NCBI GenBank assembly: GCA_036172245.1
Contig: JAYWIR010000046.1
Location: forward strand, 248,001 to 312,000
Source of the DNA: Raillietiella orientalis
Lineage: Eukaryota
Direction: 5' to 3'
Length of the DNA: 64,000 nucleotides
In this document: positions 1,538 through 49,103 of the stretch, piece after piece
Position numbering within the stretch: the first letter of the stretch is position 1
Layout of the letters: each line of letters starts with the position of its first letter
Notes under the pieces: generated by a model
Databases searched by the model: none
Seen by the model: the letters and a program-made list of their open reading frames with translations, nothing else
Told to the model about the DNA's origin: nothing
Program-made: the position numbers and the translations under genes

Positions 1538-3130
1538 GTGATGGTAGTTGCAGGCCAACACGACGCTCCCTCAAACTACTCGTCTGGTATCGTGGTCAAC
1601 ATCGCTTGTCTTGAGCACAATTAAGCTCACGGCCAGGTAAGTATGAGTTAATATGTGTCGACAGTAACCTCTTCGCTTCGAACAGCAATTTGCGGCAACA
1701 GGCATCGTGGAGATGAAAGCAATCTGCATATACATGTGTCAAGTTCTGCAGACGATCTCCTCGACACACCAATAAGAAAACGGCCCTCATTTTGTTTTTC
1801 GCATAGTAAGGTGTAAACAGTTGTGCTCACTTGTTTCAAAACATTCCCAAGCGCATTTCTTTCCAGCATCAGAAGACTCATCGAGAAGGGGTTGTCTTTC
1901 TCGAATGACTTCTCTCGTTTTCCAGAATCGGAGAAGACAGTTCAGAGAAATGTAACGAATGGGAAGCTTCCCGAAACGTAGGGAATTGATTCGATTTCAT
2001 GAAGTTCTCAAGATACGCACAATTTTCCAAGATCGCCTCCAGAAACATCAGAAAACGGTTCGTTGAGTAGAAATTTTTAAGGTCACTATAGCTTTGTAAG
2101 CTCGTATCCACGTGTACATCTTCAATGTTGCACACTGGTAGTACTCCTCTGCATGGCAAAAGAATGAACCAGATCGTAACAAAATGACTCCGAAGTTTCT
2201 TTTTTGCTTCCCTTGATAAGTTTCTTCATAAAATAAGGCAGGGATTTCCTGATACAAAGAGGATTTTATTATTTATCTTCATTCAGCAGTCCAGAGTGTT
2301 CAATGCAAGGAAATTCTCAGTAGCACCCAGGACCCTCAATGCTAGGAAATAGAAAATTCATAGAAATGCACAACCAACCAACGCAAGAGATTTTTTATTC
2401 ACAATTCAGAATCCAGACTTGGTTTGTGGATAACCAGGAGTTCCTATTTCGTTATCCGAGGTGAAAGGATTTGAAGGTCCGGTGACTCCAGCAACCAAAC
2501 ATCCAATGGATGTAGCTTAGATTGATATTCAATAAGAAATAAAAGGTCAGCAAACAGTCATCAAGGAGGAGATCGAACACGTGAAGACCACTTTGAGGTT
2601 CCTGCGAATTCAAACCAATGCACTTTCATTCATCTCAAGGAAACTGCGCAACCTCTACAAGGAACATTTCATGCCAGTTTCACAAGAAGAGCAGTGTTGT
2701 TGCAACACGACGAATAGATTTGCTGTTTCTTTGCAAACTCTTATGGTGTTTTCTCAACTAAGGTTTTCTTTTGCTGGAATGCTCCCTTCGAATTTAGAAG
2801 ACCAAACTTGACAAATTCACACTATCGCTGCATTCATTTTGGGCTTTCGGAAGCTTGAAAATGAAGCCATGCCGGTACTTTTATTTGACAAAAAAGTATC
2901 CACGCACATAGCAGAGATAAGAAGGCAGCAGAGTACACACACTCTGCCTTTTCTCTGATGCCAAATTAGGTAAAGGTCATGACTTTCAAATCAGTGAGAC
3001 AATATCCAATGCTACTGCACTAACGAGCAGCAGTGCATTCCAATATTGCAAGCGTGCTGCAGCAAGGAGAAAGTTGCACAACTCTACGTAAAGTAATTTT
3101 CACCACTTTGGTGTTTACTTGTCAATTCCC
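1538..3130. repeat. ~1.6 kb block, near-identical inverted copy of 29823-31415
   Basis: The ORF track gives the same translations on opposite strands (e.g. 1878..2159- and 30794..31075+; 2581..2811+ and 30142..30372-). Confidence 0.95.
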
Positions 3131-4429
3131 AATCCCGTTGTTCCAGAGAACCATAGGATGGTGAATTGTAAGTACATCCCATCCCCTGTTCCTCATTCAA
3201 AGCTCCATCTCCTTCCGCTGAACGAAACGCCAACGCTTTAGGTACTAAATTTGGTACTAGGTCCATTCAGATTAGAGCAATGCAGATACTGAGAGTCAAG
3301 ATATTCTAAGTAGATCGTTGTACTTTAGGAATGGAACCATTCTCAGTTTATAGTTGTGTTAGTGCAAGTGTACAAGCTTGGTTAGTGGAGTAAGAGCATG
3401 ATTTGCTGACTGACGAGGGCAGTGAGACCAATGTCAGAAGTGGACGTTCAGCTAAAGAAGAAAAATGAACCTGAGTGAATCCCGATCCTCAATTTTAGGG
3501 GGGTTGTTATGGAGTGCTGCATTTTGACAGATCCAATAGAGCGTAACAACACTAGGGACATCGATGCTATTCCTTCTGCATGTCTCTTTCCATTGATTTT
3601 GGAAGACCGCTCACCACTAAGAAAAGAAAAGGTGCTTAAAATTAAATAAGAGAAAGTAGCATCAAGTGCGAAGACACAATTGGGAAGCAGCTGTCAGTAA
3701 GAATACACAACAATTTCTCTGCTGTTATGATGAGTTTCTGAGAGTATGTTGGTGGCCATGATTTTCGTCGCTCTAGCATGAAGTTACGTACGATTCGAAA
3801 GATGGTGGACGTGCCAGAAGGTGTATCCAGGCAATGGGGTGGATCTTTTTGACGCAAAAGATTATCTCGTTATTGACAATTATGGTTTTTTTTTGTTTTC
3901 CAGTATGAGAATTTGAGTGAAATATTCATTGGACGGGGAAAGGAAGTAATATTGGGACGAAAAAGGTAATATTAAAATCAGCTATTTTTTCTAATAGTGG
4001 ATATTAGAGGGAATTTGAGATTCATCACTCGGATATTAATCAGTTCAATGAGGTTGATCTTTTATGTACTCGAATATGCCTCTGTCTCATTTGGCAATAA
4101 TACGTTTACAAGTTAATATTTCTACCTATTGGTCATTAGTTAGTTAGGAAACGGGGATGAGTTTTTTTTTTCATAAAAATAAACAGATATAAGGTAGTTA
4201 AAAGAGATATAGGGTGAAATCTATTAGTCTGTATTGCTGGGTTTTATCACCAGAGTGGAGTTGATTTGGAGGAAATGACACATGGGCAATCTATCTAATT
4301 GGATAATGCTAGTTTCATCTAGTGAGAAATTATGATGTACGATAGGATGAGCAATTCAGCAGAAATGTACTTGCAATGTTTTTCAGATATTTCTCATGAA
4401 TCAGGTAGTGCTTTTTAGGTGTATCTCGT

Positions 4430-7250: not shown

Positions 7251-8675
7251 TTAATTGTCGACTCTGAAATGGGAAGAGCCATTAAATTCTTCAAACCACA
7301 GGGTCATCTCCAGTCCTTCTTCTGCAGAGTCAGCAAACTGTACATTTTCCAACATATCATGTTTCTGCAGAAAATCTATCTTCATAAGAGTGCATCTGAC
7401 GAGTGAAAATCCCTGGCGTAGAGATATCGAATGATCGGCACAAGGAAGCCTCCTCATCTGAACCAAAATTCTCATGCTGTGGTGGATGTCTAAAGACATC
7501 ACAGCCATAGATCCAAAGACTCTTACGAAAGAAGCATTCAAGATTCCCGAATGTTTGGCGAATGGTTCGTACTCAGAATTCGGTTCGTTCTCTTTCATGA
7601 GAATCTCCACGCTAAATCTAATCTTTGGGAAGAGGTTTGGAAAAAGTGAGACCGTGGAAGAAGCAGTTCTTTTTCAATTGCAGACTTCTCGCAATGGATA
7701 CACTGAGAGCACCTATTTGGTATTTGAACTCACCTGAAGCTGTTGTTTTCTTCCGATCCCTAAAGCTCAACCGGAAAAAAACCAGAAATTCCAAAAAACT
7801 TTCATGGCGACCTGGCAGTAGCAGGAAAACCAAGGCACGATCCCTCCCTTTTCTGGGCAATCTGAAGAAGAAGTTGAAGTGCTGCTTCATATTCCAAAAT
7901 CTCCAAGTCTTCGTATATTCTGCCAAGTTCTTTGACAAGGGAAAGCAAAGGGAAGCGGATGGGTTGGATGACATCACGGCGATCATCCGGATGCTTCTTC
8001 AGTCACCTCGACACTGCTTGGGCGATGTCTACATGCAATGCAAGAGCATTTCTTCTCAGCAGTCGAAACAGCATGTCCTTCCAGAGTCTCACGAAATGAT
8101 CGGACTGGAGACCAAAGGTGCAAATCCGTGCACAATCAATGCAATCCATGCATTCCTCCAGAGAATTCAATTCCTCCAGGAGTTAGGGAACATCCACAGG
8201 CTCGCAGCAATTGTCTGGATTCCTCTCTTCTCTCAAGATATCCAAGCATCACGTTTTCGAGTTGGTGACCATATACTTGTTGACCGCGTACAGCGTAGTG
8301 CAGACAATGTTGAAACAACTCTTGCTAAGTCCATCATCCCTGTATAAGAAAATAATCAAATTCCTCATCGCCTTCAAAATGACTTTTGATACTTCCACGA
8401 AGAATCCAGTGCTGGATGACGACTATTCTCTGTAGAACATCTTATGGAAAACGGGACTACCAGATGCTAGCAACAATCGGTGTGCATGCATCTTGTTTTT
8501 GTAGGCCACAGAGAAAGCATGCATCGCACGAGAGTTGCTCCTCCAACATCTCCTTGAATCTTTTGCATGTGCTGTGTAGTTTAAAATCCTTGTGAACTTC
8601 ACGCTATTACCACATAGCTCACAGCAATCTCCCTCTGTGCTCGTTGACTCGTCCGTCTTCGTTTTGCTCGTTATG
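7251..8675 (-). pseudogene. BTB/POZ-BACK protein pseudogene (copy 1)
   Basis: Homologous to the genes at 21862 and 47714 (same C-terminal GLEMTLWF segment) but with frameshifts and a stop; same 31-nt GT-AG segment at 7703-7733. Confidence 0.85.
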
Positions 8676-9920
8676 GACCCTCACTAAATGAGGAAAAGTC
8701 CTTCAGTTTCTCAATTGAAACAAATTGAAGATCGTGAATGTATCCGTATTTCAAAAATTTTATTCTTGAGCGGTTGGTGAATGAAAATCTACCTAAATGA
8801 GCTTCGACAATCTTCATAGTGGTCTCGACGCCAAAAAGTTGCACAAAAGACAGCAAAGGCAAGCGCCATAATGTGTATCTTTTGTATGTCTGTTCTTGGA
8901 CGATATGTGACATGAGTTGAGGTGGAGGCGATCAAGAAAATACCTGGAAGCCTCGTCTGATTTTCAGCGTGCGCCGCACCAAACGGCTTGGTTGGTAAAG
9001 AAAATAAGAAATAAAAGGCGCACGTGTGGCAACAGACGCGAACGCATTCCTGCCGGGTTCCTTCGAGATTATATCAATGCTTCTCCTACAATAAATCGAC
9101 TTCGATGAATACTTGCATGATGCTCGACATCACAAAAAAAACATCGAAGAATGACTTATCAATGTGAAATTTTTGTTGTATAATGCATTTTAATGATCCT
9201 TAAAGAAATCAATGGAATCTCTGTACCATCTACAACCCACTATTTAAAACAATAAACAATCCAACTCACCATAATCATGAAGACGTGACCTAAACATTGA
9301 AAATCATAAATCAGTTTCGCAGTTTCATTTGAAAACTTTAATTTCCATTTTCTAGAGATACTTCCCTTACTACAGTCGGCAAGAGCGAACCTTCGGATCA
9401 AAAACACTTCTAATCCCTCTGGAGTGGAAGGTGAACTTCGTCTTCGGCATTGAGAGGCAATCGTTGAAACCGATTCTGGTCATCAACCAGTCAACAAATC
9501 AGCGACTCTTTCATCAGCAACAGAACGCCTTGGATGCCATCCCTCATTGCTGCCGTGAGTTTCCACAAAACCATCGGTCAGGAACAGAATAACGCCAGAG
9601 GCTTCTCAAACGGTGGAAGGAAAAGACAAGATGCAGACTCCTGACCCACTTCAACATCTCAGCTTACAAGACCTGCCATCGAGGTGCAGGGGAGATTCCG
9701 GAATGCAAATATCTTCCACAGATTTGGAAGCCAGTTTCCTGCGGGAAACCAAAGTAATGCTCCAGGAGAGGCATACTCTACCCCGCTCAGCGTCTCTGTG
9801 AGGAACTCCACCCCCTACACGTAGGCGCAAGCGGGCGCCCAGGAAACCTGGAAAGCACCTCTTCTTCTACGTGGAAAGAACCTCCTCTCGTACTGTTCTT
9901 ATGCGAACACTTCCTAGGCT

Positions 9921-10040
9921 CGACGAAGACCGCAGCTAACTTCGCGACGCAATGTGAATTGCAGGGCACATTGAGCATCGACACGTCGAACCAAATGGCT
10001 GCCTCGAATTCCTGCGAGGCCACGTCTGTCTGAGGGTCGA
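9921..10040 (+). pseudogene. 5'-truncated 5.8S rRNA copy
   Basis: Matches conserved 5.8S motifs CGAnGAAGAnCGCAGC, ATGTGAATTGCAG, ACATTGAnCATCGACA and 3' GTCTGAGGGTCG; no 18S or 28S adjacent. Confidence 0.9.
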
Positions 10041-10350
10041 AAGAACCTTTCCGCGAAGCGTCCGGAGAAGCGGAGGCTCGCGCCGAGCGCGACCCGCTCC
10101 GCAGCCGTCCGCGCACCCGTCGACTCGGCCGCACCTTCGGGAGCTCGCCAAGGAACCGCATCGCCCGCCTCAGCGCGGAGCGCCTCCTTTCCGGCGTTTC
10201 CGCGCGCGGCAGCGCGGGTGCGATTGCGCCCCTCGCGGAAGGCTTCCCGAACGGTTGGTCCGTCCGGCGACACGGTGCGGCGGAACTTCCCTCGAGCGTC
10301 GAGCACGCTGTACTCTCCTGGACGCGCCCGTTCGCAGCACGCATTCTCGA

Positions 10351-11694
10351 TTTTCACCCGGATTTCGCCGGGGCGTTTATTGGAAAATAAACTTTTACAA
10401 AGACGTGCGGTGGCTGGACCATTGCTCCAGCCACGCACGAAGAAACACAGAGCCTGCCGGGTCACCGGTTCGCAGACCGGTACGGTCCACCACGGCAGCA
10501 GGGGGAAGGGGGGAAAACAAAAAACAAAACAAAAAAGAAAAGAAAAGTTGGGAGGGTAAGGGAAGGGATCACAGTTGCTGGTGGGGCCGTTGCATCCTTT
10601 GCAGGATGCCGGCAAGCTCCTTCTGTATTCCTGGATCCAGGTGGGGCCATCGGGACGCCCTCCTCAGGAACTGGGAGGCTTGCTGGATGGCACTCTGATC
10701 GCGTTGTCCTCCCGTAGCCTTGCTCCAAGCGGTGACGATCCCGCGTAGGCAGCACAAAGCTGCTAACGAGGCCGCTGGCCGAAGGGCGTCGGCAACGAAG
10801 AGGGCTTTCAGTGCGTCCCTGGGGTTGCCGCAGGGGATTCCGATGGCCGCGGCAAAGCGAAACCAAAGGGGCCGAAGGGCAACACAATCCACTAGCAGGT
10901 GGGGGAGGGACTCCCGTTCCCCACACCTGACGCAATTGGGGTCCACCGCTCCCCAGGTCCAGTGGTGTCGGCGGGCGTTGCAGGGGAGTCCCCAGTGCTG
11001 CAACAGGAGAGCCGACTCCTGCCATTTTAAGGGGAGGGCGGAAGTGTTCATGAGCACCGGGGGCCACTTCAGATGTTCAATGGGAACATCGAGCAGCGCG
11101 CCCCAGCGCAGAAGTCCATTGGGAGGCGTACTCGGGGTCGCAGCGTCTGTTAACTGGCCCGTCTTCCACTCTCCTATCTTCTCCTTTCCGGAGATTGTTA
11201 CTGTAACCACCCACTTCGCCGCAACATCGCTGTCCAGATCTTCCATCAGGGAGGGCAGCGCAGCAGCGAGGGGGGTTCTTCCTGCCCACGCTCTCTTCTT
11301 TGGATCCTCCAGGATCTCGCGGAGCGTGCAACTTCTGTAACCCCCAAACAGGAACCTTCGTTCCTGTTGGGAGCGTTGCATGCCGAACTGTCCCCACGTT
11401 CGAACGGTTTCCTGCAACCAGGCACTACCGTTAAACGGGCGACAGGTGAGCAATCCTGGGTTTTTCCGATACAGCGCAGCCACCCTCCGTAGCTGGAGTC
11501 CGCATCGGTTGACGCGGCGACGGAGTGCAAGAAACGACGTCAGTCCCGTCTTGCCGGTGGCTTGCTGGAGAAGGAGACGTGCAGGGACGCACCAACAGGT
11601 GCACCACAACTCTGGAACGAGTGCCGAGAAGCGGAACTGGAGCTGAAGCTCCAGCCGCTCCAGCGTCAGGAGGCCCAGACCACCATCCCGACAA
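10351..11694 (-). mobile_element. 5'-truncated family-A LINE inserted in the ITS2-like spacer
   Basis: 15-bp TSD AGCACGCATTCTCGA at 10336-10350 and 11695-11709; uninterrupted ORF2 C-terminus (GGLGLLTLERLELQLQFR...CVRCGERESLPHLLVDC); family-A 3' end. Confidence 0.92.
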
Positions 11695-12485
11695 AGCACG
11701 CATTCTCGAGAGGGGGCGGCGGCGTCGCCTCCCGTGAACGGAAAAGTGATCCCGATCCGCGAAGCCGCGCAAAAAAAAAAAAAAAACACTTCCTAGGCTG
11801 AGGCTGAGGAACGCCCTTGGTCCAGCACATCGTCGACGGAGTGGGGCATTCCTAGTGACTGTAGATGAGGAGAAGGGGGAGCGAACGGATCGCAACAAAA
11901 ATGAGGAAAGGAGGGCGAAGACAAGGAGAGGCAAAAGGAGGCGGTAGGGAGCTCGAGGGAACCGGGAGGATGGGGCGCGGCATAAAGGGAGAAAAGGAGA
12001 TGAGGACGACAAACAGGTGGCAGGATCTGAAGACAACTGAGGAGTGGTAGCAAGCAAGAAAGAAACACACTGATCAAAAAAAAAAAAAAGGGTGGATGGA
12101 CGGAATTGACATTCAAGTGAGGAGTGCCAAGGGTAGGAGAGAGATTTGTAAACCGGTCACGCCGGCACGTCTGTTAAACACCAGTTAGGACCACCGTTCC
12201 TAACCGAGATGCAACGAAAAAGAAACGAATCCGCTAGCACGCGGGCCGGGCTAAAGGAAGTTCGGAACGGGGCGGGGGATTTTTTTTTTTTGAAGCAACA
12301 AAGTTGTATTTTTGGTCAGGCAGCTCGTCGACTCGTGACCGTGTCGTTGGCTCATCATCGTATGGGGACATCTCCGTGTCTTCGCCACACCGCCGTGTCC
12401 TTCCTTGCCTGACCGGCATGCAGTCGGCTGATCATCACGTCGGTGCTTCATCATAGGACATTCTGCTTAGAGCCCGGTCGTTGAC

Positions 12486-14800
12486 CAATCGTCGTGTCGC
12501 CGGCTCATCACCGTGCCGATGGACGGTCGTCGTGTCGCTGATGCGTGTTCAGTCAGGTCTCCGCCTCATCTTGTTGTCTTTGGCTGATCATCCTATTCGG
12601 ATGACTCGATGGGGATAGGGACACAAAAAGACAGTTAGTTGGGGCAGGGAACTTTGGGATAGTTCCGGGAGGCACTGGTTTAACACACTCACACCGGAGA
12701 AATTCGCAGCGAACGGGGATGGAGGATAAAACAAAAACATACAAACCAACAAAAATAAATGAAATCAATCAATCAATCGAGGGTGGGAGGTGGCTAAGTT
12801 CACCGGGGTCTGCCGTTCTTTACACTCCATCTGCCGCTGGATGCTGACGATCTCCTCTCTTGCTCGCTCTTCCAGGTGCTGCCACCTTGGAGCTGTCCTC
12901 ATGTAAGAAGCTGCGTCACAACGGACCACTTTTCGCTTCCCTCTCGTCGCGAAAACGTAGCGGGCTTTGACGATGGCGCGAGTGCAACAGATCGTTGCGA
13001 CTATCACGCCAACCGAAAGTCCGTTTCCCATGAAGTAACGGCGAAGCACGTCGTTGGCAGCGCCTCCCTGTAACGAAACAGCTGGAACCAGCCTGAGTCA
13101 CACAGTTAGTTGAGCTCACCGAATTCGAGCAAGAGGTGCGGGAACGACTCGATCGTCCCGTGCCTAGAGCAGTTCGGAGAGACAACTCCCTCGGAAACGA
13201 TGTTACGCCGCTGATTACAGTAGAAACCCCAGTGTAACAACAACAGCACATCTTGTTTCCATCTCAAGGAGAATACAGAGCTAGCCAGGCAGTGGGTGGG
13301 ACCACTATCTCTTCGAGGGGCACACTTAATACGTCGCTCCATCGAAGGAGTCCCTTCGCCCGATCGGAAGGAGTGGCGGCATGCATCAGCTCCTTCGTCC
13401 GCAGCCGCCAAGGAGCTTGGTCTCCCCTACGATGGTGCAGGAGATCTTCCACCCAGCTGGTAGTCTACTGTCATTGTTTGCTCTGAGGTCACATAGAGCT
13501 GCGGCGAGGGGTATGGTGGCAAGACGATCCCATTTCTTCTTGTCCTGCATGATGTCTTCCAGAGGATGACTCAGGAAGAATCGCAGGCCTCGAAGATCTG
13601 CCAGGCGCATCCTTTCGGAAGCTGTCCATAACACAACCGACTCCTGCCGCCCTGCATTACTGTTTATAGGGCGACAAATGATCCAACATTGAGCTTCCAG
13701 TAGTGAGGACAGTCGCGGGAAGCCAAATCCTTTCCTGGTGTGCCGAAACTCAGGCAGCAACGAAAGGAGTCCTTCGCTGCCAGTGCAGCGCGGAAGAATA
13801 AGGTGCGCAGGAAGGCACCATGGAGTACATCAGAGTTTGGCACATAGTGCCAGATTTCGAAACTGCAACTGCAATTCGATATTGTTCATCGTCAGGATGC
13901 CTAAAATCGCATCCTGACGTTTCAATGGGGTTCTCGGTTTTTCGCTCACCATCGGATCCTCTGACGTGCCCTCCGCAGACTTGAATGCTGTTGGGAAACG
14001 GTGTGGAACTGCGCGGAATGCACGAGCTGCTCTTGAAACTTCTCTGCCGAAGGGCGTCACCATTCCATTCTGGGAACGTGCGGCTCGACACTCTTCCTCT
14101 CATCCACTTCCTAACCCTCTAGTTTGAACGAAGCATCCTCCCACATCTGCGTTGTCTTCGTCTGCGAAAGCCGGCGAAAGCTGCAGGCAAGGGGTGACAA
14201 AGCGCGAGTCCGCATCCAAGGAATGCGTCGGTGACCTACTGAAGCGGCAGACGTGCGATTTTCACTTGCCATCTTCGAGCGGATGATGCTTTGGTTGCTC
14301 TGAGGTTTCTTCCCAGCATACAGACCATAGGAGCAGTCTCTCACTTCCAAAAACCCTGAAGATCAAGTATATCTTCGGCTCGGTTCCTTCTGAGTTCACC
14401 CTCTGTGGAGGAGAGACTGTACCTAAGGAGATCGACGCTATCGTTTCTCTCCCAACAAGAACAGACTTGTCATGCTACTCCTTAAGACAGGCCGTCTTAA
14501 GGAGTTCGTAGTACGGTGAGGCCCACCGTACTACGAACCCACACTGAAGGGTGGTGAGCGTTTTTCTCTGCCTACGAGGAAACATTGGATGCATTCTAAA
14601 AAAAACGTTCGAGAGGAAGATTATCAGGTAAGGGAGCTTTCTCCAGTATTGCATCCTCCTTCGAGTTGCGTATGGAATGAGGAACAGGAGTACAATCCCT
14701 GATGCGGCCTCTCCTCGTAAGAATTCCCATCTCATAAAAGCAACTCTCGTGGACTGACCTTTGTTTAGGTGCACATGGGAATGCAGACCGGACCTTCATA
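12486..14800 (-). mobile_element. Decayed family-A-related LINE; 12486-~14500 is duplicated at 42298-~44320
   Basis: LRWKQDVLLLLHWGFYCNQRR...PNCSRHGTIESFPHLLLE and IELQLQFRNLA motifs; near-identical ORF translations in both copies. Confidence 0.8.
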
Positions 14801-21270: not shown

Positions 21271-21861
21271 GTGTTTTCACCTTTCTTTCCGTTCGTTTTA
21301 TGAAACCATTCATTTTATTGAAACCTCCATTGAAACCCCGTCACATGTTGTCAGCACACGTGACGAATGAAAACACCCCGAAGAGAATTTGCAATGTTTT
21401 TTTTGGTGATATCGTGCAGCATGCAGGAATTCATCAAAGTCGATTTATTAGCAAAGGATCTGTGAGATGATCTCAAAGGAACCTTGCAAGAATGCGTTGG
21501 CATCTGCTGCCACACGTGCGCTTTTTGTCGTTTATTTTCTTTGCCGAGTTAGCTGTTTGGCATGGAGCATTCCGAAAATCAAAGGCATACACATGTTTTC
21601 TTCATCGACGCCACTTTCACCAATGTCACACAACGCGCAAGAACAGAAATAAAAGTGATGCTTTATGACGCTTTCATTCTCTGTCTTTGGTGCAACTTTT
21701 TGGCGGCGAGACTACTCTGTAAATTGCTGAATCTAGTTTTACCCTAAAAGCGAATCGTCATTAGCTAACCCCTTGAAGACAGCTGTAATACAGAGACGTT
21801 CACGATCTGCTAGTTTTTTCTTTCCTCATTTCATGGACTGTTCCTCATCTAGTAGGCGTCC

Positions 21862-23266
21862 ATGATGAGCGACACGAAGACGGACCAGTCAACGACCACA
21901 GAGGGAGAGTGCTGTGAGCTCAATGGAAGTCACGTGAACTTTGCCAAGATTTTAAACTATACAGCATATGTGAAAGAAAGATTCAAGAGGATGCTGGAGG
22001 AGCAACGCTTGTGCGATGTATGCTTTGTTTGTGGCGAACAGAAAGAGAAGATCCATGCTCACCGGCTGTTGCTAGCAGCTGGCAGTCCCGTTTTCCATAA
22101 GATGTTCTACGGAGAACTCTCATCCAACACTGGATTCTTCGTCGAAGTTCCAGACATCAGCTTGGAGGCGATGAAGAATTTGATTCTTTTCCTGTATACG
22201 GATGAAGGGCCTATGCAGAGTTCTTTGAGCATTGTTTGCAATACTCTGTACGCTGCCAACAAGTACATGATCCCCATTTTGAAAACGTGCTGCTTGGATG
22301 TCTTGCGAAAACTGAGAAACCCAGACAATTGCTGCGAGCTTTTGGACGTTTCCTACCTTTATGGAGAATACGATTTTCTCGAAGAATGCATGGTTTATAT
22401 CGAGGATATAGCACCTTTGGTATTCGAGTCTGACGATTTCGTCGTACTATCGAAGGATGTGCTGCTTCAGCTGCTGATTAGGGACACGCTTGCAATGCAA
22501 GAAATAGACATCGCCTACGCAGTCTCCAGGTGGCTTAAAGAACATCCATATGATTGTCGTGATGTCATTCAAGTCATCCGTTTCCCTTTGCTGTCCGCCA
22601 AAGAACTTGCCAAAATATACGAAGACTCAGACCTTCTGGGAGATGAGAGAGCATTCCAACTTCTTCTCCACATTGCCCTGCAAAAGGAGGGATCGTGTCT
22701 TGGATTTCCTGCTACTGCCAGATCGCCATGCACGATTTTTGGAATTTCTGGTTTTTTCCCCGTTGAACTTTGGGGATCAGAAGAAAGCCACAGCTTCAGG
22801 TGAGTTAAAAGACTGAATAGCTGCTTTCAGTGTATCCATTGAGAGTAGTCTGCAATTGAAAGAGGACTGCTTCTTCCATGGTCTCACTTTCTCCAAACCT
22901 CTCCCCAAAGATGCCCCATTTAGTGTGGAGATTCTCTTAAGAGCAGACAAATTGAAAAGTGATTACGATTCGTTCGCCGAACATTCGAGAATTTCAAATG
23001 CTACCCCCATAAGAGTCTTAGGATATATGCATGCGATGTCCTCATACTACTCCTACAGCATGAGAATTTTTGTTCAGGTAAGGAGGAGGCTGCCGGATGC
23101 CGATCATTCGATATCTCCACGCCAGGGATTTTCACACGTCAGAGGCTCTTTTATAAAGACAGATTCTCTGCGGAAACATGATATGGTGAAAAATATACAT
23201 TTTTATAAGTCTTCAGGCGAAGGACTGGAGATGACGCTGTGGTTCCAAAAAACAAGTGGGTCTTAG
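21862..23266 (+). CDS. BTB/POZ-BACK domain protein (BTBD1/2/3/6-like), two exons, predicted intron 22800-22830, ~457 aa
   Basis: CDVCFVCGEQKEKIHAHRLLLAAGSPVFHKMFYG BTB motif; LYAANKY; BACK-like IRFPLLS. Removing the 31-nt GT-AG segment joins ORFs 21862..22803 and 22856..23266 in frame. Confidence 0.85.
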
Positions 23267-26300: not shown

Positions 26301-26685
26301 TTACAGTCACGTCTTATAAAGAAGCAAATGGCAATTTGCTAAGAAATAGCTGAAATACGGTCTGAATCCTTTTCTCATCCATACTTGCTACCTAGAAACG
26401 GTGATTCATTCTAGTCATTAATGATATAGTCAGCTTTTGGTTTATGATAATCGAGATGCACCTTCTCGACGTGCATCGAAAAAAGCTGAAAGTCGACTGA
26501 AGTCCTCGTACTTGCTCTCCAGAGTTTGCTTAGTTGTGGGAAACAAGATTTTCTATTGCTCTGTACTGATTCCTTTTCTTTCGTTGAAACGCAGAAAGAA
26601 GGAAACTCGCATATGTGGGGAGTTGAACGAATACTGCCTATGGACACAGACAGGGGCTTGGCGAAGGAGACTAGCACCGAGCTGT

Positions 26686-28627
26686 CTCCTTGCTTTTCAG
26701 CACCTACTTCGAGCTGGTGCTGAGGGCATACAGGGAGACTCTTGGTCGCCTGCCGCGCGTGTGCCCAGGTACACCAGCCGTGGCGTCTTATGCGGACGAT
26801 CTTTTGCTGCTGCTCCCCATGTCCACCCCGGCGTCGGCGGTCGAAAACTTTTTCGAGCTGCTGCGTCGCGGGACAGGGCTGGAGGTGAACAGAGCGAAGT
26901 CGTCCGTGGTTGCAGCTGGTTCATCGCAGGCAGGGCAGCCGGATTGGTCTAGCTTGGGGATCCCCACGGTACGGTACCTTAAGTACCTCGGTGTGCCCTT
27001 GGGGGACTACTCCCCAGCGGAACAATGGTCTTGCTGCCTCCAAAAGGCCGAGAGAGCGATCGGCCCGTTCCTGGATGGCAAGTTCTTCTTGCCGGAACGG
27101 GCCGTGGTGTGGAACACGTTTGTGGCCCCCCTTTTTCGCCCCTTGCTTTTTGTTTGCCCTCCACCCTGCGGTGTCAGAAAACGGACGAAGGACCTCCTCA
27201 GAATCGCCCTTTGGGGCAGAGGTAGGCCCCGAGTCCGTTTGAAGGACTTATGTGCCCCTGGTCGCGATGGAGGCCTCGGCCTCCTCACGCTGGAGCGGCT
27301 GGAACTGCAGCTGCAGTTCAGGACTCTAGCCCTAGTAGCGAAGCTATGGAGCACCAGCTGGTGCGAGCCTGCACGACGCCTGGTTCAGCGAGCTAGCGGC
27401 TGCGCGGGACTGTCTACTTCCTAGAGTACCGCAAACGCCGGTACCTGTTCCACTGCGGACTGGCACTTCGGCGAGTGGCGAAGCTGACCAGAACGAACAC
27501 CTGGATCTCCTGTCGGCACGCGAACGGTACTTCCTGGTTGCAGGAAAGCCTTCGCACGTAGGCCCAGATCGAGGAAGCGAGCCCGGAGTTGCGGCAGCGA
27601 ATGCTGCTCTCCTATCACAAGAGCCGCTCGCTGCAGGACATCATTGTGCAGCCCACCTCGAGCGCATGGGCTGAGAGGACCTCCCTTGTCGCGGCTCTGT
27701 CCCACCTCAGGGAGCACCTGGGCAGTAGCCATCCGGCGAAATGGGAAGTCCGGTGTAGTATCTCTGGAAGAGAGAGAGAGCAAGGTGGTTGGACCACGGG
27801 CCAGTTGACAGACGCTGCGACCCCAAGTGCCCCACCAAAGGGACTATTGCTCTGGGGCAAGCTGCTGAGCATCCTCATGGATGTACTCGAGTGGCCCCCG
27901 GTGCTGAAGACTACCCGGGCCCTCCCTCTGAAGTGGCAGGAGTCGGCGTTCCTGGTGTTGCACTGGGGACTCCCCAGCAACGCCCGCCGTTCGCACTGGA
28001 CGAGGGGGGCTGTGGACCCAAATTGTGTCAGGTGCGGGGAACGGGAAACCCTCCCGCACCTGCTTCTTGACTGTGTTGCCCTCCGGCCTCTGTGGTTGCG
28101 TTTCGCAACGGCCCTAGGAGCACCCACGATCAACCGTAGAGACGTTCTGACGCGCCTCTTTGTGCGTGACTCCCTTCGGCCTGCCGCAGCCCTTGCAGCC
28201 CTCTGTTGCCTACGAGGGATTGTGGCGGCCTGGAGCACCGCCACTGGTGGACTGAACGACAGGGACATCATCTGCTCCGCCCTGCGTTTCCTAAGGACGG
28301 CAGCCAGATGGTCCCATTTGGGGCATATGCGGACCGAACTTGCCGGCATCCTGGAAAGGATGTAGAGGACGACTCCAGCGGAATGTGATCCCTTCCCCAA
28401 CTCTCCCCTGCTTTTGTAAATAGCGTTTTCTTTTTGTTTTTATTTGTCCTTTTCCCCCCTGCTGCCAAGTCGAACTCGCCAGCCTGCGTGCTTGCTACTC
28501 GGCAATTTCAAACTCTTTACTAGAACTTTTTTTAGGACGCTGCAGGGGCAATAGCCCTACACTTGCTTGTTTGCTTTTACAAAAAAATAAACGCCCCGGC
28601 GCACCCGGGTGTAAAAAAAAAAAAAAA
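26686..28627 (+). mobile_element. 5'-truncated family-A LINE (RT core to 3' end)
   Basis: 11-bp TSD CACCGAGCTGT at 26675-26685 and 28628-28638; SYADDLL, KYLGV and CVRCGERETLPHLLLDC motifs; poly(A) tail; frameshift near 27420. Confidence 0.92.
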
Positions 28628-28789
28628 CACCGAGCTGTAGTTGCGTTTGCACCAGGTCCCACTGGAGGTGTGTCGCTGTGTATATCGCGAACGTTCCGCA
28701 GTTCCTGCTTCCATAATCTTCTCAGGCCAACCTAGCGGCAAGGAAGTTGGTGCTTGTTTTTAGTAGCGTCAATGCGATTAGGAGTGGTC

Positions 28790-40372: not shown

Positions 40373-42297
40373 GTGCAGAACTTCAGTGAATCCCAAGGAC
40401 TTCCAGTGAATGCAGAATAAGTGATGTATTGTATGAATGTGACTGTAGTGTGAATGTTTTAAAAAAAAAAGAAAAATAAATTTACCCCACCCCTTGTGGG
40501 ACTTGGGGAAAATCAAAGCAACAAACCCCTCTCCCCATTTCGCACTTTTCGCCCTATCTCTACATGTAACCGTTTTGATGCGATAGCGACATCCGAACCC
40601 CCCGCACCTGTAGCCATAGAAACAGCGCATCCTATCCCTACAATAGCCTGTACGTCAACAGGATCACTACCTCCCATAGTTCCATCAAATTCATCTTCCT
40701 CCGAAGCCTTACAACAGCAAGCACAACCGATACATCCAACTCCCTTATACCCCTTGCACTCAACCAGCGAACCAGCACCCTATGTCTCCGCAGCACAACA
40801 CGTTCTGCCAAACACCCAACATACACTACACACGAGCACACACTCCATCCTTAGTTCTTACACCCCGATCCTCACGACCCTTCTCACACAATCGACGTCT
40901 AATGACACTTGGCAACGTACCCTGGATACCCTCAACGAAATTATGAATACCATAACTTCTACGTTCCACATACGCCCATTTAACCCTTCCACAAGGCCTA
41001 CATCCTATTCCAATGCCTTTCGCCTTACCTCACCGAAACCACTTCAATCTCTGTATCGGCGAAACCGAAAACGAGCCATTCGCACTCTTCTTCATCCGAA
41101 TCCCATTCAATTTAACGGCTGTAAATCCATGGTTCAAACTATTTTTAGTGAAAAGTCCTCAGCAAAGACAGTGAACGCGGACATACTCAAGGAAAGGCCT
41201 TTAATCCTGGCTTCTTCGGAAGTGAATTGTGCAAACATGACCCCTCAAGGCGTTCTGTTCACATTAAGGAACTCCCAACACACTACTCCAGGGAATGACA
41301 GATCCCGTACTCCATACTGCGCAAAGCAGACCGAGACGGATCTTGTCTTGCAGTCCTATACAATTCATGTGCCCGTCACTTGCGTATCCCTAACGATTGG
41401 AAAACATCACGCAGAGTCCTAATCCCTAAATCTGGCGCATCTGATCCGGCAGACGTAACGCAGTTGCGCACCATCGCAATCTCCAATACCATTAGCAAGC
41501 TATTCTGCAACATCCTTGCGAAAAGAATGCGCTCGTGGATCCTCAACAACGGAATCCTTGGACACCATCAAAAGGGATTTCTTATTTATGATGGCGCGTT
41601 GGAGCAAAACTCTGTCCTGACCACTGCACTTGAGCGCTCCCGAGTGCACCACCAACACATCGCCATTGCTTGCATAGACTTAAACCGACGCGTTTACCTG
41701 CATCACTCATCAGCTGATTCTAGACACGCTGACCGTGCTAGGGGCTGGTAGTCAGTTTCACGGAATCATTGCGGAAATGTATTCGGAATCTACGACAATG
41801 ATCGTGGCTTCGGACGAGCCCAATATCGTATCGTTCCGGAGTGCTCCGAGGATGTTCCCTAAGTGGGGTGTTATTTAACATCTCTCTAGAACCTTTTAAC
41901 AGAATTGTGAAACACCAACAGCCCTCTATTATTCCGCTTGCTTATGCAGACGATGTTGCGCTTATTGCTAGCTCGAGAAATGAGCTACAACTGGCCGTTA
42001 CCACACTCGCAGATTCAACCCGAGCTACAAACTCGCAAATAAATCCCAATAAGTGCGGCTCCTATCACTCGCACTTGTGGCGGGGAATCTACGTAAATTC
42101 CCCAATATCTGTGAACGGTGCAATAATTCCCTCCCTTTCCCTACAAGATACTTATAATTATCTAGGGAAACCGATTGGCTTCGATCCACTCATGTACGAC
42201 GGAAACGTAGATACCTTCACTGCCCATTTCAAAATCATTGCTGACTCCTCCTTAGCCCCATGGCAGAAACTGGACGCCATCAAATGCTTTCTCTTGC

Positions 42298-45000
42298 CCA
42301 ATCATCGTGTCGCCGGCTCATCACCGTGCCGATGGACGGTCGTCGTGTCGCTGATGCGTGTTCGGTCAGGTCTCCGCCTCATCTTGTTATCTTTGGCTGA
42401 TCATCCTGTTCGGGGGACTCGATGGGGATAGGGACACAAAAAGACAGTTAGTTGGGGCAGGGAACTTTGGGATAGTTCCGGGAGGCACTGGTTTAACACA
42501 CACCGGAGAAATTCGCAGCGAACGGGGATAAAGGATAAAACAAAAACATACAAACCAACAAAAATAAATGAAATCAATCAATCAATCGAGGGTGGGAGGT
42601 GGCTAAGTTCACCGGGGTCTGCCGTTCTTTACACTCCATCTGCCGCTGGATGCTGACGATCTCCTCTCTTGCTCGCTCTTCCAGGTGCTGCCACCTTGGA
42701 GCTGTCCTCATGTAAGAAGCTGCGTCACAACGGACCACTTTTCGCTTCCCTCTCGTCGCGAAAACGTAGCGGGCTTTGACGATGGCGCGAGTGCAACAGA
42801 TCGTTGCGACTATCACGCCAACCGAAAGTCCGTTTCGCATGAAGTAACGGCGAAGCACGTCGTTGGCAGCGCCTCCCTGTAACGAAACAGCTGGAACCAG
42901 CCTGAGTCACACAGTTAGTTGAGCTCACCGAATTCGAGCAAGAGGTGCGGGAACGACTCGATCGTCCCGTGCCTAGAGCAGTTCGGAGAGACAACTCCCT
43001 CGGAAACGATGTTACGCCGCTGATTACAGTAGAAACCCCAGTGTAACAACAACAGCACATCTTGTTTCCATCTCAAGGAGAATACAGAGCTAGCCAGGCA
43101 GTGGGTGGGACCACTATCTCTTCGAGGGGCACACTTAATACGTCGCTCCATCGAAGGAGTCCCTTCGCCCGATCGGAAGGAGTGGCGGCATGCATCAGCT
43201 CCTTCGTCCGCAGCCGCCAAGGAGCTTGGTCCCCCTACGATGGTGCAGGAGATCTTCCACCCAGCTGGTAGTCTACTGTCATTGTTTGCTCTGAGGTCAC
43301 ATAGAGCTGCGGCGAGGGGTATGGTGGCAAGACGATCCCATTTCTTCTTGTCCTGCATGATGTCTTCCAGAGGATGACTCAGGAAGAATCGCAGGCCTCG
43401 AAGATCTGCCAGGCGCATCCTTTCGGAAGCTGTCCATAACACAACCGACTCCTGCCGCCCTGCATTACTGTTTATAGGGCGACAAATGATCCAACATTGA
43501 GCTTCCAGTAGTGAGGACAGTCGCGGGAAGCCAAATCCTTTCCTGGTGTGCCGAAACTCAGGCAGCAACGAAAGGAGTCCTTCGCTGCCAGTGCAGCGCG
43601 GAAGAATAAGGTGCGCAGGAAGGCACCATGGAGTACATCAGAGTTTGGCACATAGTGCCAGATTTCGAAACTGCAACTGCAATTCGATATTGTTCATCGT
43701 CAGGATGCCTAAAATCGCATCCTGACGTTTCAATGGGGTTCTCGGTTTTTCGCTCACCATCGGATCCTCTGACGTGCCCTCCGCAGACTTGAATGCTGTT
43801 GGGAAACGGTGTGGAACTGCGCGGAATGCACGAGCTGCTCTTGAAACTTCTCTGCCGAAGGGCGTCACCATTCCATTCTGGGAACGTGCGGCTCGACACT
43901 TCCTCTCATCCACTTCCTAACCCTCTAGTTTGAACGAAGCATCCTCCCACATCTGCGTTGTCTTCGTCTGCGAAAGCCGGCGAAAGCTGCAGGCAAAGGG
44001 TGACAAAGCGCGAGTCCGCATCCAAGGAATGCGTCGGTGACCTACTGAAGCGGCAGACGTGCGATTTTCACTTGCCATCTTCGAGCGGATGATGCTTTGG
44101 TTGCTCTGAGGTTTCTTCCCAGCATACAGACCATAGGAGCAGTCTCTCACTTCCAAAAACCCTGAAGATCAAGTATATCTTCGGCTCGGTTCCTTCTGAG
44201 TTCACCCTCTGTGGAGGAGGAGAGACTGTACCATGCGAAGGCGTGGATCGCTGTCCCTACGTAGATCGACTCTATCGCTTCGCTCCCAACAGCAACAGAC
44301 TTGTCATGCTACTCCTTAAGACGGCCTCACCGTTCTACGAGCTCACACTGGGCGTTTTTTCTCTGCCGACGTGGAAGCCGTAGATGCATTCTGAAAACAA
44401 CGCGAGAGTGGAAGATTCTCAGGTAGGGGACCATCCACGAAGACCGGTTCCCTGCAACAGAGGTTCCTACTCTGGTCGTTCGGATATCAGAGCAGCTTCG
44501 CGCAGGCGCTGCGGGGGTTCGCAAACGCTTGGAGGGCAGAAAAATTCCCTTTTAGGATGCTGGTCGTTTTGAAGTCTTTGCGAATCCCTGTGGACGGTGC
44601 AACGCTTATAGACTGTCGGACAGTTAGACGGAGTGCATGTCACGTGCGAGTACTTGAGGGCATTTGCGCATCGCTCCGAAGTGCTTGGCAACCATCTGCA
44701 AGAAAATGGCGGCGACACTCTGACTTGTGGGAAAACGGATCCCATATTTACAACTGCTTGCGGAGACTGATCTTCACATTCCTTCACGGAAGAAATCCAA
44801 TGCGCCAGGGGAACTCCACCGCCGGACCAACCTGTGCGTGAATGCCACGGGGACAACTGCGATCGTAAGTACCTTCATCGTCAAATTGCGAGAATGGCGA
44901 GACGCGCTCGAGCGGTACCATGTCAAGGGCTTGTAGCCGCACTGCTAAAGCGCTGGAGGTTTCCCAACGAGGCTGCATTCCATCTGCGACGGAAAGTTTG
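42298..45000 (-). mobile_element. Decayed family-A-related LINE, direct duplicate of 12486-14500 with further RT remnants
   Basis: Near-identical sequence and ORFs to the 12.5-14.5 kb copy. Confidence 0.8.
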
Positions 45001-47133: not shown

Positions 47134-47713
47134 TTTCGTTTTCTCACCTTTCTTTTCGTCCGTTCTATCGAAATCTCCTTTGTATCAGCACAATCGGGGA
47201 ACGAAAAGATCCCGGAAAGAGACTGCAATGATTTTTTTGTAATGTCGAATATCATTCAACAATTCATCAAAGTCAATTTAGTAAAGAGGGACCTGTGCGA
47301 TGGCCCCCCAAAAACCCTACAAGACTACGTTTGCGTCTGTTGCCTCACGTGCGCTTTTTCCTTCTAAGTTTCTTTGCCAAACAAGCAGTTAGATGAGTTG
47401 CTGTTGAAAATCAAAGACTTTCAGGTATTTTCCTGATCGTTTCCACTTCCACAAATGCCACATAACGTCCACGAGCTGAAGTACAAGGGATGCTTCATGA
47501 CGCTTGCATTTATTGTCTTTTATGCAACTTCCTGAGGGCAATGCCAATCTGAAGAATGTTTAAGCTCGTTTTCTGCTAAAAGTCAATCTTCATTTCCTAG
47601 CCGCGCAAAGATAAAACATTTGTAAGACTTTTTCACGATCTTCGATTTCTTTCATTTCCCAGACCGATGAACTTTTCCTCATGTAGTGTGCGTGCAAGAT
47701 AACCGAAACGAAG

Positions 47714-49103
47714 ATGGACGAGTCACCGAGCACAGAAGGAGAGTGCTCCAAAGAGATACGTGTGACATGCATGAACTTTACCAAGCTTTTGAAGAACTAC
47801 ACAGCTCAGGCGAAAGAGAGGTTTAGGCAGATGCTGGAGGAGCAACTCCTGTGCGATGTTTGCTTTCTCTGTGGCGATGAGAAAGAGAAGATCCATGCTC
47901 ACAGGCTGTTGCTAGCAGCTGGCAGTCCCGTTTTCCATAAGATGTTCTACGGAGAACTCTCATCCAACACCGGTTTCTTCGTGGAGGTTCCAGACATTAG
48001 TTTGGAGGCGATGAAGAATTTGATTCTTTTCCTATATACCGGTGATGGTCCTAGCGAGAAGTGTTTGATCAGTGTCTGCACTACGCTGTACGCTGCCAAC
48101 AAGTATATGATCCCCAATTTGAAAATGTGCTGCTTGGATATCATGAGAAAGCGGAGGAATCCAGACAATTCCTGCGAGCTTTTGAACGTTTCCTACCTTT
48201 ATGGAGAATACGATTTTCTCGAAGAATGCATGGTTTATATCGAGGATATAGCACCTTTGGTATTCGAGTCTGACGATTTCGTCGTACTATCGAAGGATGT
48301 GCTGCTTCAGCTGCTGATTAGGGATACGCTTGCAATGCAAGAAATAGACATCGCCTACGCAGTGTCGAGGTGGCTGAAGGAGCATCCGAATGATCGCCGT
48401 GATGTCCTCCAATTCATCCGTTTCCCTTTGCTGTCTGCCGAAGAACTTGCCAGAATATACGAAAGCTCAGATCTTCTGGAAGATGATGCAGCACTGCAAC
48501 TTCTTATTCACATTACCTTGAGAAGAACAGGATCGTGCCTAGGTTTTCCTGCTGCTGTCAGGTCGCCATGCAAGTGTATTAGAATTTCTGGTTTTTTCCC
48601 TGTTGAACCATGGGAATCAAGATTATTTAGCGGCTTCAGGTGAGTTCAAATATCAAAAAGGTCCTCTCAGAATATCGATGGTGAGAAGTTTCCGACTGAG
48701 AGAGGATTTTTTCTTCCACGGTGTTACTTTCTCCGAGCCTCTTCCCATGGAGAGGCTATTTAGCGTGAAGATTTGCTTGATGGAAGAAGACCATCCGGAG
48801 ACTAAGTTCGTCTCTCATTCGGGAATCTCGAATGCTTCTTCCATAAGAGTGTTAGGACCTAAGTATCCGATAATCAGAAAAATCTTCTACCTCTTGGGAA
48901 TTTTTGTTAAGGTGAGGAGGCTGCCTCGTGCCGACTATTCAATATCTCCACGAAAGGGATTTTCACAATTCAAAGGCTCTTTCATTGGGAACGATGTTCT
49001 GCAGAAACATCATGTGCTGGAGAACATCGAGTTTTATGGCCAGTCAGGAGAAGGATTGGAGATGGCGCTGTGGTTTCAAAAAAAAAGTGGGTTTCCCCGT
49101 TGA
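47714..49103 (+). CDS. BTB/POZ-BACK domain protein (copy 3), two exons, predicted intron 48640-48670, ~452 aa
   Basis: Same BTB and BACK motifs as 21862; removing the 31-nt GT-AG segment joins 47714..48643 to 48603..49103 in frame. Confidence 0.85.

What the first reader, a model, noticed from the sequence alone, without database searches (positions are those of the whole stretch)
9906..11799. Polyadenylated 5.8S+ITS2 pre-rRNA intermediate retroposed into the genome (or a 5.8S-derived SINE)
Seen: 5'-truncated 5.8S, about 370 nt of GC-rich spacer (excluding the nested LINE), an A16 tract and a 15-bp TSD, which are hallmarks of target-primed reverse transcription. Established: 5.8S precursors with ITS2 extensions (7S/12S type) can be oligoadenylated for exosome trimming. 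Inference: this is a fossil of such an intermediate marking an ITS2 cleavage or adenylation site near 11770; if multi-copy with a fixed 3' end it would be a 5.8S-derived SINE-like family.
Basis: partly seen in the sequence, partly recalled or inferred. Interest (0 to 1): 0.75.

Follow-up and report, generated by a model that had tools for sequence, protein, structure and literature searches.

The report
Retrocopy of tailed ribosomal precursor RNA
A single dead genomic copy of an unfinished ribosomal RNA (most of 5.8S plus the first half of the spacer that is normally cut away), given an A-tail and pasted in by a retrotransposon enzyme, so it preserves a short-lived RNA end but is not a mobile-element family.

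Summary
Observation confirmed. 9921-11770, without a nested 5'-truncated LINE (10351-11694, own 15-bp TSD), aligns to the genome's rDNA contig from 5.8S nt 34 to ITS2 nt ~367 of 798. It is followed by A16 (14 outside the TSD) that rDNA does not encode there, inside a perfect 15-bp TSD; an inverted paralogue shows the empty site. It is a LINE-made processed pseudogene of an adenylated 5.8S+5'ITS2 RNA (7S/12S-like). The SINE idea fails: one copy in four searches. That the end marks the ITS2 cut is inferred, not shown, as no raw reads were available. In favour: one older relic stops ~25 nt away; no dispersed copy of ITS1 or 3' ITS2 was found; and 22 of 39 scored 28S relics end within 9 nt inside the hidden-break interval, so relics here do record real RNA ends. 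Those relics are tailless; this was the only tailed one seen. Against: n=1, the end lies mid-hairpin (exosome stall or abortive transcript fit as well), and the tail could come from another RNA. The scan earlier noted an 18S retrocopy in this genome, but no 5.8S-ITS2 one. New variant of a known kind.

The parts
9906..9920 (+). 5' copy of the 15-bp outer target-site duplication
   Evidence: 15/15 identical to 11785-11799; the 15-mer occurs twice in the window
9921..10039 (+). 5.8S rRNA copy, nt 34 to the 3' end (33 nt missing at the 5' end)
   Evidence: Rfam RF00002 73.9 bits; 114/119 identical to C371 65-184 plus one deletion
10040..10350 (+). ITS2 5' part (long GC-rich hairpin); includes the first copy of the inner TSD
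   Evidence: matches C371 ITS2, E 5e-23; first 26 nt 23/24, middle 79-87% with many indels; same hairpin apex as C371 in MFE folds
10336..10350 (+). inner TSD, first copy
   Evidence: 15/15 to 11695-11709
10351..11694 (-). nested 5'-truncated LINE (3' end of ORF2 and 3' UTR); off-target insertion of a family that normally hits DLHKAF codons of other LINE reverse transcriptases
   Evidence: 39 other places at 91-98% identity (40 of 5101 candidates scored); all 29 other loci examined continue further 5'; zf-RVT E 1.2e-4, below cut-off; target reading
11695..11709 (+). inner TSD, second copy
11710..11770 (+). ITS2 conserved block, ending at ITS2 nt ~367 of 798, midway down the 3' arm of a small hairpin
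   Evidence: 93% to C371 479-547; 68/72 over C371 479-551; hairpin C371 536-556 at pair probability above 0.8; block conserved in older relics
11771..11786 (+). A16 tail (14 non-templated A + 2 shared with the TSD)
   Evidence: C371 continues with G/C-rich ITS2 here
11785..11799 (+). 3' copy of the outer TSD
9376..9905 (.). left host flank, part of an old duplicated sequence whose inverted paralogue lacks the insert
   Evidence: 69% to G000:C46:~236.2-236.9 kb region, locus L048
11800..11860 (.). right host flank; the paralogue alignment runs on across the joined empty site
   Evidence: the right flank alone scores 50 against 35.5 +/- 6.3 in shuffles, 7 of 200 reaching it

Best explanation
A single, dead-on-arrival processed pseudogene of an adenylated pre-rRNA. 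(1) A Pol I transcript was cut or stopped in ITS2, leaving 5.8S plus ~367 nt of ITS2, about 520 nt if it began at the 5.8S 5' end: a 7S/12S-type RNA [structure shown; its identity as the normal intermediate inferred]. (2) Its 3' end received a non-templated A tail, most likely from a TRAMP/PAPD5-type enzyme during exosome trimming or surveillance [tail shown; enzyme inferred from yeast and mammals]. (3) A LINE endonuclease/RT nicked the target, primed on the tail with the two T of the target strand, copied ~490 nt and stopped at 5.8S nt 34; second-strand cleavage left the 15-bp TSD [anatomy shown; which LINE family is unknown]. (4) The copy decayed about 4-5% while the working ITS2 kept changing. 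(5) A younger, target-specific LINE landed off-target in the conserved ITS2 block [shown]. It has no function and did not spread. I put 0.45 on the further step that the end lies within ~30 nt of the species' main ITS2 cut.
For: Colinear match to C371 65-551, 5.8S running straight into ITS2. No A tract in ITS2 at that point, and the 5' arm of the hairpin that the end interrupts is kept, so a templated A-run there is unlikely (inference). Perfect 15-bp TSD directly at both ends. Paralogue without the insert aligns across the site. One copy only. A-tailed, TSD-making LINEs exist in the window (26675-28638, A15, 11-bp TSD). Relics in this genome behave as RNA copies that record real ends: 22 of 39 non-self 28S places scored end at C371 3282-3290, 10 exactly at 3288 (40 of 445 candidates scored), between the two hidden-break markers of PMC6925239, with unrelated flanks; 4 of 29 loci start at 981-984, the mature 28S 5' end; two 5.8S relics stop at 186 and ~192, the mature 3' end being 184. 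An older 5.8S+ITS2 relic (L043) keeps the 5.8S-to-motif spacing (306 vs 284 nt) and stops at about 528 with a GC drop from 0.64 to 0.47. No dispersed copy of ITS2 540-990 or ITS1. ITS2 cleavage to 7S/12S and oligoadenylation of pre-rRNA are established (PMC4361047, passages).
Against: One tailed copy cannot separate a cut site from a trimming stall or an abortive transcript. No raw reads of this organism: two runs with word shares of 0.11 and 0.08, contigs only. Yeast TRAMP tails are 4-5 A (PMC4361047), shorter than 14. L043 ends on the templated A5 of ITS2, so it may be internally primed; L046 holds only the 68-nt conserved block and its end is uninformative. Fast spacer evolution hides old ITS1 and 3'-ITS2 copies, and one 18S relic (L109) does include 5' ETS. 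The middle of the spacer is more diverged than the conserved blocks (41/235 vs 10/215 substitutions, Fisher p 2e-5, alignment-dependent), folds weakly (z -0.47 vs -5.44), and compensatory changes are not above a random-substitution null (3 vs 2.3, p 0.41), so the donor may have been an aberrant or divergent rDNA unit rather than a working one.
Confidence: 0.8

Rival explanations
1. Same retroposition, but the A tail came from another RNA: the RT began on the poly(A) of a LINE, SINE or mRNA and switched template to an untailed ITS2-ended RNA, or the cut RNA was ligated (RtcB-type) to a poly(A) fragment before copying.
For: RtcB joins cyclic-phosphate ends to 5'-OH RNAs before L1 retrotransposition (PMC6789731, passages); that the ITS2 cut leaves a cyclic phosphate is recalled, showing only co-occurrence in listings.
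Against: No partner sequence at all between ITS2 and the A-run (one non-matching C at most); a switch or ligation inside a poly(A) with no 3' UTR letters is less likely than direct tailing.
Confidence: 0.1
2. Internal priming: the donor ITS2 had an A-run at this point, and the RT primed on it within a longer precursor, so the end marks nothing in RNA processing.
For: The donor ITS2 differed from today's; internal priming on A-rich stretches is the favoured route for tailless retropseudogenes (PMC5322556, passages); L043 ends on the A5 of ITS2.
Against: Present ITS2 is 74% GC with a single A5 some 25 nt upstream, which the copy reads through; the 70 nt before the end are 94% identical to present ITS2; the end interrupts a hairpin whose partner arm is expected there.
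Confidence: 0.04
3. Founder or member of a 5.8S-derived SINE family with a fixed 3' end.
For: rRNA-derived SINE-like repeats exist (SINE28, PMC4994717, passages).
Against: Spacer search: self and rDNA only (2 of 2 candidates); 7 places for 5.8S+ITS2, no second tailed one; the motif-plus-A8 pattern matches once in 210 Mb; the few relics are independent and of different ages.
Confidence: 0.02
4. DNA-level capture of an rDNA fragment at a break, with tail and repeats arising by chance.
For: Most rRNA relics here lack tail and TSD; DNA-derived rDNA fragments are described in human (PMC5381670, passages).
Against: A 15-bp exact repeat flush with both ends and an A14 exactly between the ITS2 end and the repeat.
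Confidence: 0.02
5. The LINE was already in the ITS2 of a damaged rDNA unit; the whole 1.85-kb aberrant transcript was adenylated by surveillance and retroposed in one step.
For: Would explain surveillance tailing and the odd divergence of the spacer.
Against: The LINE is 98% identical to sister copies while constrained rRNA parts differ 4.7% from rDNA (10/215), so the LINE looks younger than the retrocopy; no LINE-bearing rDNA unit was seen.
Confidence: 0.04

Closest known systems
SINE28 / tailed 28S rRNA retrocopies of mammals (Longo et al. 2015, PMC4994717; passages read)
   Same: rRNA-derived, 5'-truncated, A-rich tail, TSD, LINE-mediated; aberrant polyadenylation proposed as origin
   Different: SINE28 derives from the mature 28S 3' end and has 27 human loci; this is one copy of a precursor that contains transcribed spacer, ending inside ITS2. 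'5.8S' does not occur in that paper's main text.
Tailless retropseudogenes of 5S, U2, 18S, 28S (Noll et al. 2015, PMC5322556; passages read)
   Same: 3'-truncated structural-RNA copies inside TSDs
   Different: Those lack tails and are ascribed to internal priming; the authors report failing to find oligo(A)-tailed truncated 5S or U2 copies and call nucleolar rRNA copies under-represented. This copy has a non-templated tail at an internal end.
7S (yeast) / 12S and 7S (mammal) pre-5.8S rRNA (PMC4361047; passages read)
   Same: 5.8S joined to the 5' part of ITS2; substrate class for exosome trimming and oligoadenylation
   Different: Extension here ~367 nt (yeast ~140 nt); 5' end unknown because of truncation; the cut site is unmapped in this animal.
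RNA/LINE-1 chimeric insertions, including 28S/L1 (bioRxiv 10.1101/2025.02.02.635956; U6/L1, PMC6789731; passages read)
   Same: rRNA fragments copied by LINE machinery
   Different: No LINE partner at the 3' end here; the LINE inside is a later antisense insertion with its own TSD. '5.8S' does not occur in the preprint's main text (its supplements were not seen).
Target-specific Tx1/L1-group LINEs
   Same: Nested element has a zf-RVT-like end, 15-bp TSD and a strong target preference
   Different: Clade not tested by phylogeny; this copy is off-target, in rRNA spacer sequence.

Membership tests
LINE-made processed pseudogene | colinear copy of a cellular transcript | tested here: met
   C371 65-551, 5.8S into ITS2
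LINE-made processed pseudogene | non-templated 3' A tail | tested here: met
   A14 outside the TSD; no A-run at that place in present ITS2; donor ITS2 itself not available
LINE-made processed pseudogene | flanking target-site duplication and empty site | tested here: met
   15/15 TSD; 69% paralogue aligns across the empty site; no allelic empty site available
LINE-made processed pseudogene | 5' truncation | tested here: met
   starts at 5.8S nt 34
LINE-made processed pseudogene | target matches the endonuclease preference of a known mobilising LINE | tested here: inconclusive
   TSD begins with AA only; differs from the nested family's target; mobilising family not identified
SINE | many dispersed copies with a shared 3' end and distinct TSDs | tested here: not met
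   one copy
SINE | copies derive from one another (shared diagnostic changes) | tested here: not met
   older relics L042, L043, L046, L009, L045 differ in extent and age
SINE | internal Pol III promoter and own transcription | not tested
   no reads of this organism
7S/12S-type pre-5.8S rRNA (as donor RNA) | 5.8S 3' end continuous with 5' ITS2, stopping inside ITS2 | tested here: met
   ends at ITS2 nt ~367 of 798
7S/12S-type pre-5.8S rRNA (as donor RNA) | 5' end equals the mature 5.8S 5' end | not testable with these tools
   5' truncation hides it
7S/12S-type pre-5.8S rRNA (as donor RNA) | 3' end at the endonucleolytic ITS2 site | tested here: inconclusive
   end lies just 3' of the block conserved in all relics; L043 ends ~25 nt upstream; helix numbering could not be fixed; no raw reads
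Tx1/L1-group target-specific LINE (nested element) | sequence-specific target | tested here: met
   24 of 30 loci followed by TCGAA; antisense reading gives exact DLHKAF in 13 of the 29 other loci and near variants in most of the rest
Tx1/L1-group target-specific LINE (nested element) | RT and C-terminal zinc finger; clade by RT phylogeny | tested here: inconclusive
   zf-RVT E 1.2e-4 and RVT_1 E 0.035, both below curated cut-offs; no tree built

The most novel reading that the evidence does not exclude
This animal's genome holds a fossil end-map of rRNA processing: tailless relics mark the 28S hidden break to the nucleotide, the mature 28S 5' end and the 5.8S 3' end, and this tailed copy, with L043, marks the otherwise unmapped ITS2 cut at about +345 to +370. 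It would be direct germline evidence that LINE machinery captures oligoadenylated nucleolar surveillance intermediates, and would let ITS2 and hidden-break sites be read from assemblies alone in non-model animals.
Probability: 0.4. Interest if true: 0.6.

Novelty: new variant of a known kind. Interest (0 to 1): 0.42.

Why it matters
rRNA retrocopies are known, but those described come from mature rRNA. A copy that keeps transcribed spacer and a non-templated tail is a DNA record of a short-lived, adenylated nucleolar RNA in the germ line, and it gives a precise, testable prediction for where 5.8S precursors end in an animal whose processing sites are unmapped. It also preserves an older or alternative ITS2. 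As one functionless copy its biological weight is small; the larger value is the genome-wide observation that rRNA relics here pile up at real RNA ends.

Tried and rejected
Sequencing runs: two runs with small word shares, contigs only, neither shown to be this organism; one 60-nt contig of run X1 fits C371 475-526 (5 other letters, 3 gaps, depth 4548), a hint that the conserved ITS2 block exists in another organism, but contigs show no ends or levels, and uncovered parts mean nothing; not used as evidence for the cut site. Metagenome pattern scan: 3 hits, none with 5.8S or 28S nearby, chance matches. Compensatory-change test between the copy and present ITS2: 3 double changes vs 2.3 +/- 1.4 under random substitution, p 0.41; the consensus fold shows 6 double and 9 single changes with none broken, but that is circular. 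Decay simulation: 5% random change gives mean z -2.9 (up to -0.08), 10% gives -2.3, 17% gives +0.3; the copy's -1.4 does not separate 'decayed functional variant' from 'aberrant donor'. L046 as a second end marker: rejected, neither flank matches ITS2 above shuffles. The middle of L043 is also not above shuffles (53 of 300). The equal start of all 40 LINE hits first suggested a fixed-length element; rejected, the other copies run on 5'. Helix III could not be assigned from one sequence. Literature searches for a tailed 5.8S-ITS2 retrocopy or a 5.8S SINE and for retrocopies ending at the hidden break listed none, judged from listings and the passages read; the library holds only open PMC papers and bioRxiv. 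The word search of earlier findings returned 0.
Full report
What is there. The stretch 9906-11799 is bounded by an exact 15-bp repeat that occurs only twice in the window. Inside lie a 5.8S rRNA match (Rfam 73.9 bits), a GC-rich spacer, a 1344-bp insert with its own exact 15-bp repeat, 61 more bases of spacer, and 16 A, the last two shared with the outer repeat.

The donor is the genome's own rDNA. Searches with both spacer parts found only the window and contig C371 (2 of 2 candidates each). C371 carries 5.8S at 32-184 and 28S from 983, so ITS2 is 185-982. Without the insert the element aligns to C371 65-551: 114/119 in 5.8S, 23/24 at the start of ITS2, 79-87% with many indels in the middle, 68/72 in the last block. 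It starts at 5.8S nt 34 and ends at ITS2 nt ~367 of 798. Present ITS2 continues G/C-rich there; its only A-run of four or more is an A5 about 25 nt upstream, which the copy reads through. The end falls midway down the 3' arm of a predicted hairpin (536-556), so a templated A-run in the donor is unlikely (inference). A 69% identical inverted paralogue of the left flank, about 20 kb away and outside the window, aligns across the joined empty site without the insert; the right flank alone is modestly supported (7 of 200 shuffles reach its score).

Copy number. The 5.8S+ITS2 query gave 7 places (7 of 7 candidates): rDNA, the window (twice), and four older relics; the Rfam search added one more weak relic (5 matches, 39 of 6742 candidates scored). 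None of these five relics shows a poly(A) tail with a TSD. The ITS2 motif followed within 30 nt by A8 matches once in 210 Mb. There is no SINE family in this assembly.

Does the end mean anything? Three lines bear on it. First, relic L043 has a full, decayed 5.8S (77%) and the conserved ITS2 block at the right distance (306 vs 284 nt), then stops at about C371 528 in A-rich sequence with GC falling from 0.64 to 0.47; this is ~25 nt from the window's end, but it sits on the templated A5 and may be internally primed. L046 holds only the conserved block and says nothing on ends. Second, no dispersed match was found for ITS2 540-990 or for 1.3 kb of ITS1; spacers change fast, so old copies would be missed, and one 18S relic (L109) does carry 5' ETS. 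Third, mature-rRNA relics in this genome record real RNA ends. Of 39 non-self places scored for 28S 2400-3403 (40 of 445 candidates, ranked by score), 22 end at 3282-3290 and 10 exactly at 3288. [quoted passage not shown] Four of 29 loci from the 5' part of 28S start at 981-984, the mature 5' end, and two 5.8S relics stop at 186 and about 192. None of the 28S loci examined (29, 33, overlapping) nor the 14 18S loci (9 distinct places) has an A tail plus TSD at the match end; one (L091) has a plausible 8-bp TSD without tail. So untailed rRNA enters this genome mostly by a TSD-less route, and the window's copy is the one tailed, TSD-flanked case seen, which fits an RNA that was adenylated before copying.

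Mechanism. Established (PMC4361047, passages): ITS2 removal starts with an endonucleolytic cut giving 7S (yeast, ~140-nt extension) or 12S (mammals); the exosome trims the 3' end with intermediates between 12S and 7S; TRAMP adds 4-5 A to surveilled pre-rRNA in yeast, and PAPD5 polyadenylates abortive Pol I transcripts in mouse cells. [quoted passage not shown] Inferred: a ~520-nt 5.8S+ITS2 RNA was tailed, primed by the two T at a LINE nick, copied ~490 nt and sealed with a 15-bp duplication. A-tailed, TSD-making LINEs are present (26675-28638). The 14 A may include slippage. Whether the end is the primary cut, an exosome stall at a G/C hairpin or an abortive transcript cannot be told from one copy; no raw reads exist for the test.

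Age and donor. Constrained parts differ by 10/215 (4.7%), the middle of the spacer by 41/235 (17%; Fisher p 2e-5, alignment-dependent). Uniform decay of the copy cannot give that; most middle differences arose in an rDNA lineage, either by fast ITS2 turnover since insertion or because the donor was a divergent unit. The copy keeps the same long hairpin apex but folds weakly (z -0.47 vs -5.44), and compensatory changes are not above chance, so this stays open.

The nested element. It has 39 other places at 91-98% identity among 40 scored; all 29 other loci examined extend further 5', so this copy is 5'-truncated. It carries a zf-RVT-like end and a sister copy a weak RVT_1 match upstream, both below cut-off. 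Here it hit a look-alike in the ITS2 block. At 98% to its sisters it looks younger than the retrocopy.

Comparison and novelty. It works like, and passes the tests for, a LINE-made processed pseudogene; it fails the SINE test. Nearest described cases are SINE28 (PMC4994717, passages), tailless rRNA copies (PMC5322556, passages) and 28S/L1 chimeras (10.1101/2025.02.02.635956, passages; supplements not seen and may list 5.8S cases). A review of rDNA and transposons (PMC10946416, passages) names 5S- and 28S-derived elements in the passages seen and has no mention of ITS2; PMC5381670 (passages) treats human rDNA fragments without tails or target sites. Searches listed no tailed 5.8S-ITS2 retrocopy, within an open-access library only. 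Verdict: a real, well-formed, single-copy fossil of an adenylated pre-rRNA; new variant of a known kind; interest 0.42.

Noticed in passing
G000 dispersed 28S copies, e.g. L082-L101; C371 3282-3290: 22 of 39 scored 28S relics end within 9 nt (10 at exactly 3288), tailless and nearly all without TSD, inside the hidden-break interval: a genomic map of the 28S-alpha 3' end. 445 candidates suggest many more copies.
   Followed up: partly
L059/L061/L063/L065/L073; C371 1921-1926: Five separate 28S relics start just after the first A of the conserved loop at C371 1911-1927, where a 1-methyladenosine of the large subunit is recalled (yeast m1A645; from memory), as if the RT stopped at a modified base. 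A second cluster of 5' ends lies at C371 2459-2487.
   Followed up: no
window 10351-11694 and loci L011-L039: The nested LINE family inserts antisense into DLHKAF codons of other LINE RTs; L030 sits in the same kind of target in the opposite orientation, the target having TCGA at both ends; L011 and the window copy are off-target.
   Followed up: partly
   Followed up: no
window 26675-28638: 5'-truncated LINE-like insert with A15 tail and 11-bp TSD whose 3' end shares the AATAAA-plus-hairpin tail of the nested LINE.
   Followed up: partly
L043 (G000:C44 ~1371.6-1372.15 kb, minus strand): Older relic of full 5.8S, perhaps with ~20 nt of ITS1, plus decayed ITS2 to about C371 528; no clear TSD.
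   Followed up: yes
L042 (G000:C48 908443-908600): Decayed full-length 5.8S relic whose 5' end is preceded by a short inverted copy of itself (fold-back), ending a few nt past the mature 3' end.
   Followed up: no
G000:C30 2072001-2073077 (L121, L096): A 46-nt piece ending at the 18S 3' end lies tail-to-tail, ~130 nt from a 28S relic that runs through the hidden-break interval.
   Followed up: no
window 12481-14000 and 42294-43808; 7506-9144 with 21394-23029 and 47228-48861: Flanking repeats: a 99% identical 1.5-kb pair and a 75-76% identical trio.
   Followed up: no
L109 (G000:C8 ~3376.4 kb): 18S relic that includes about 430 nt of 5' ETS, 78% identical; a second spacer-bearing relic, without tail or TSD at the match end.
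   Followed up: no
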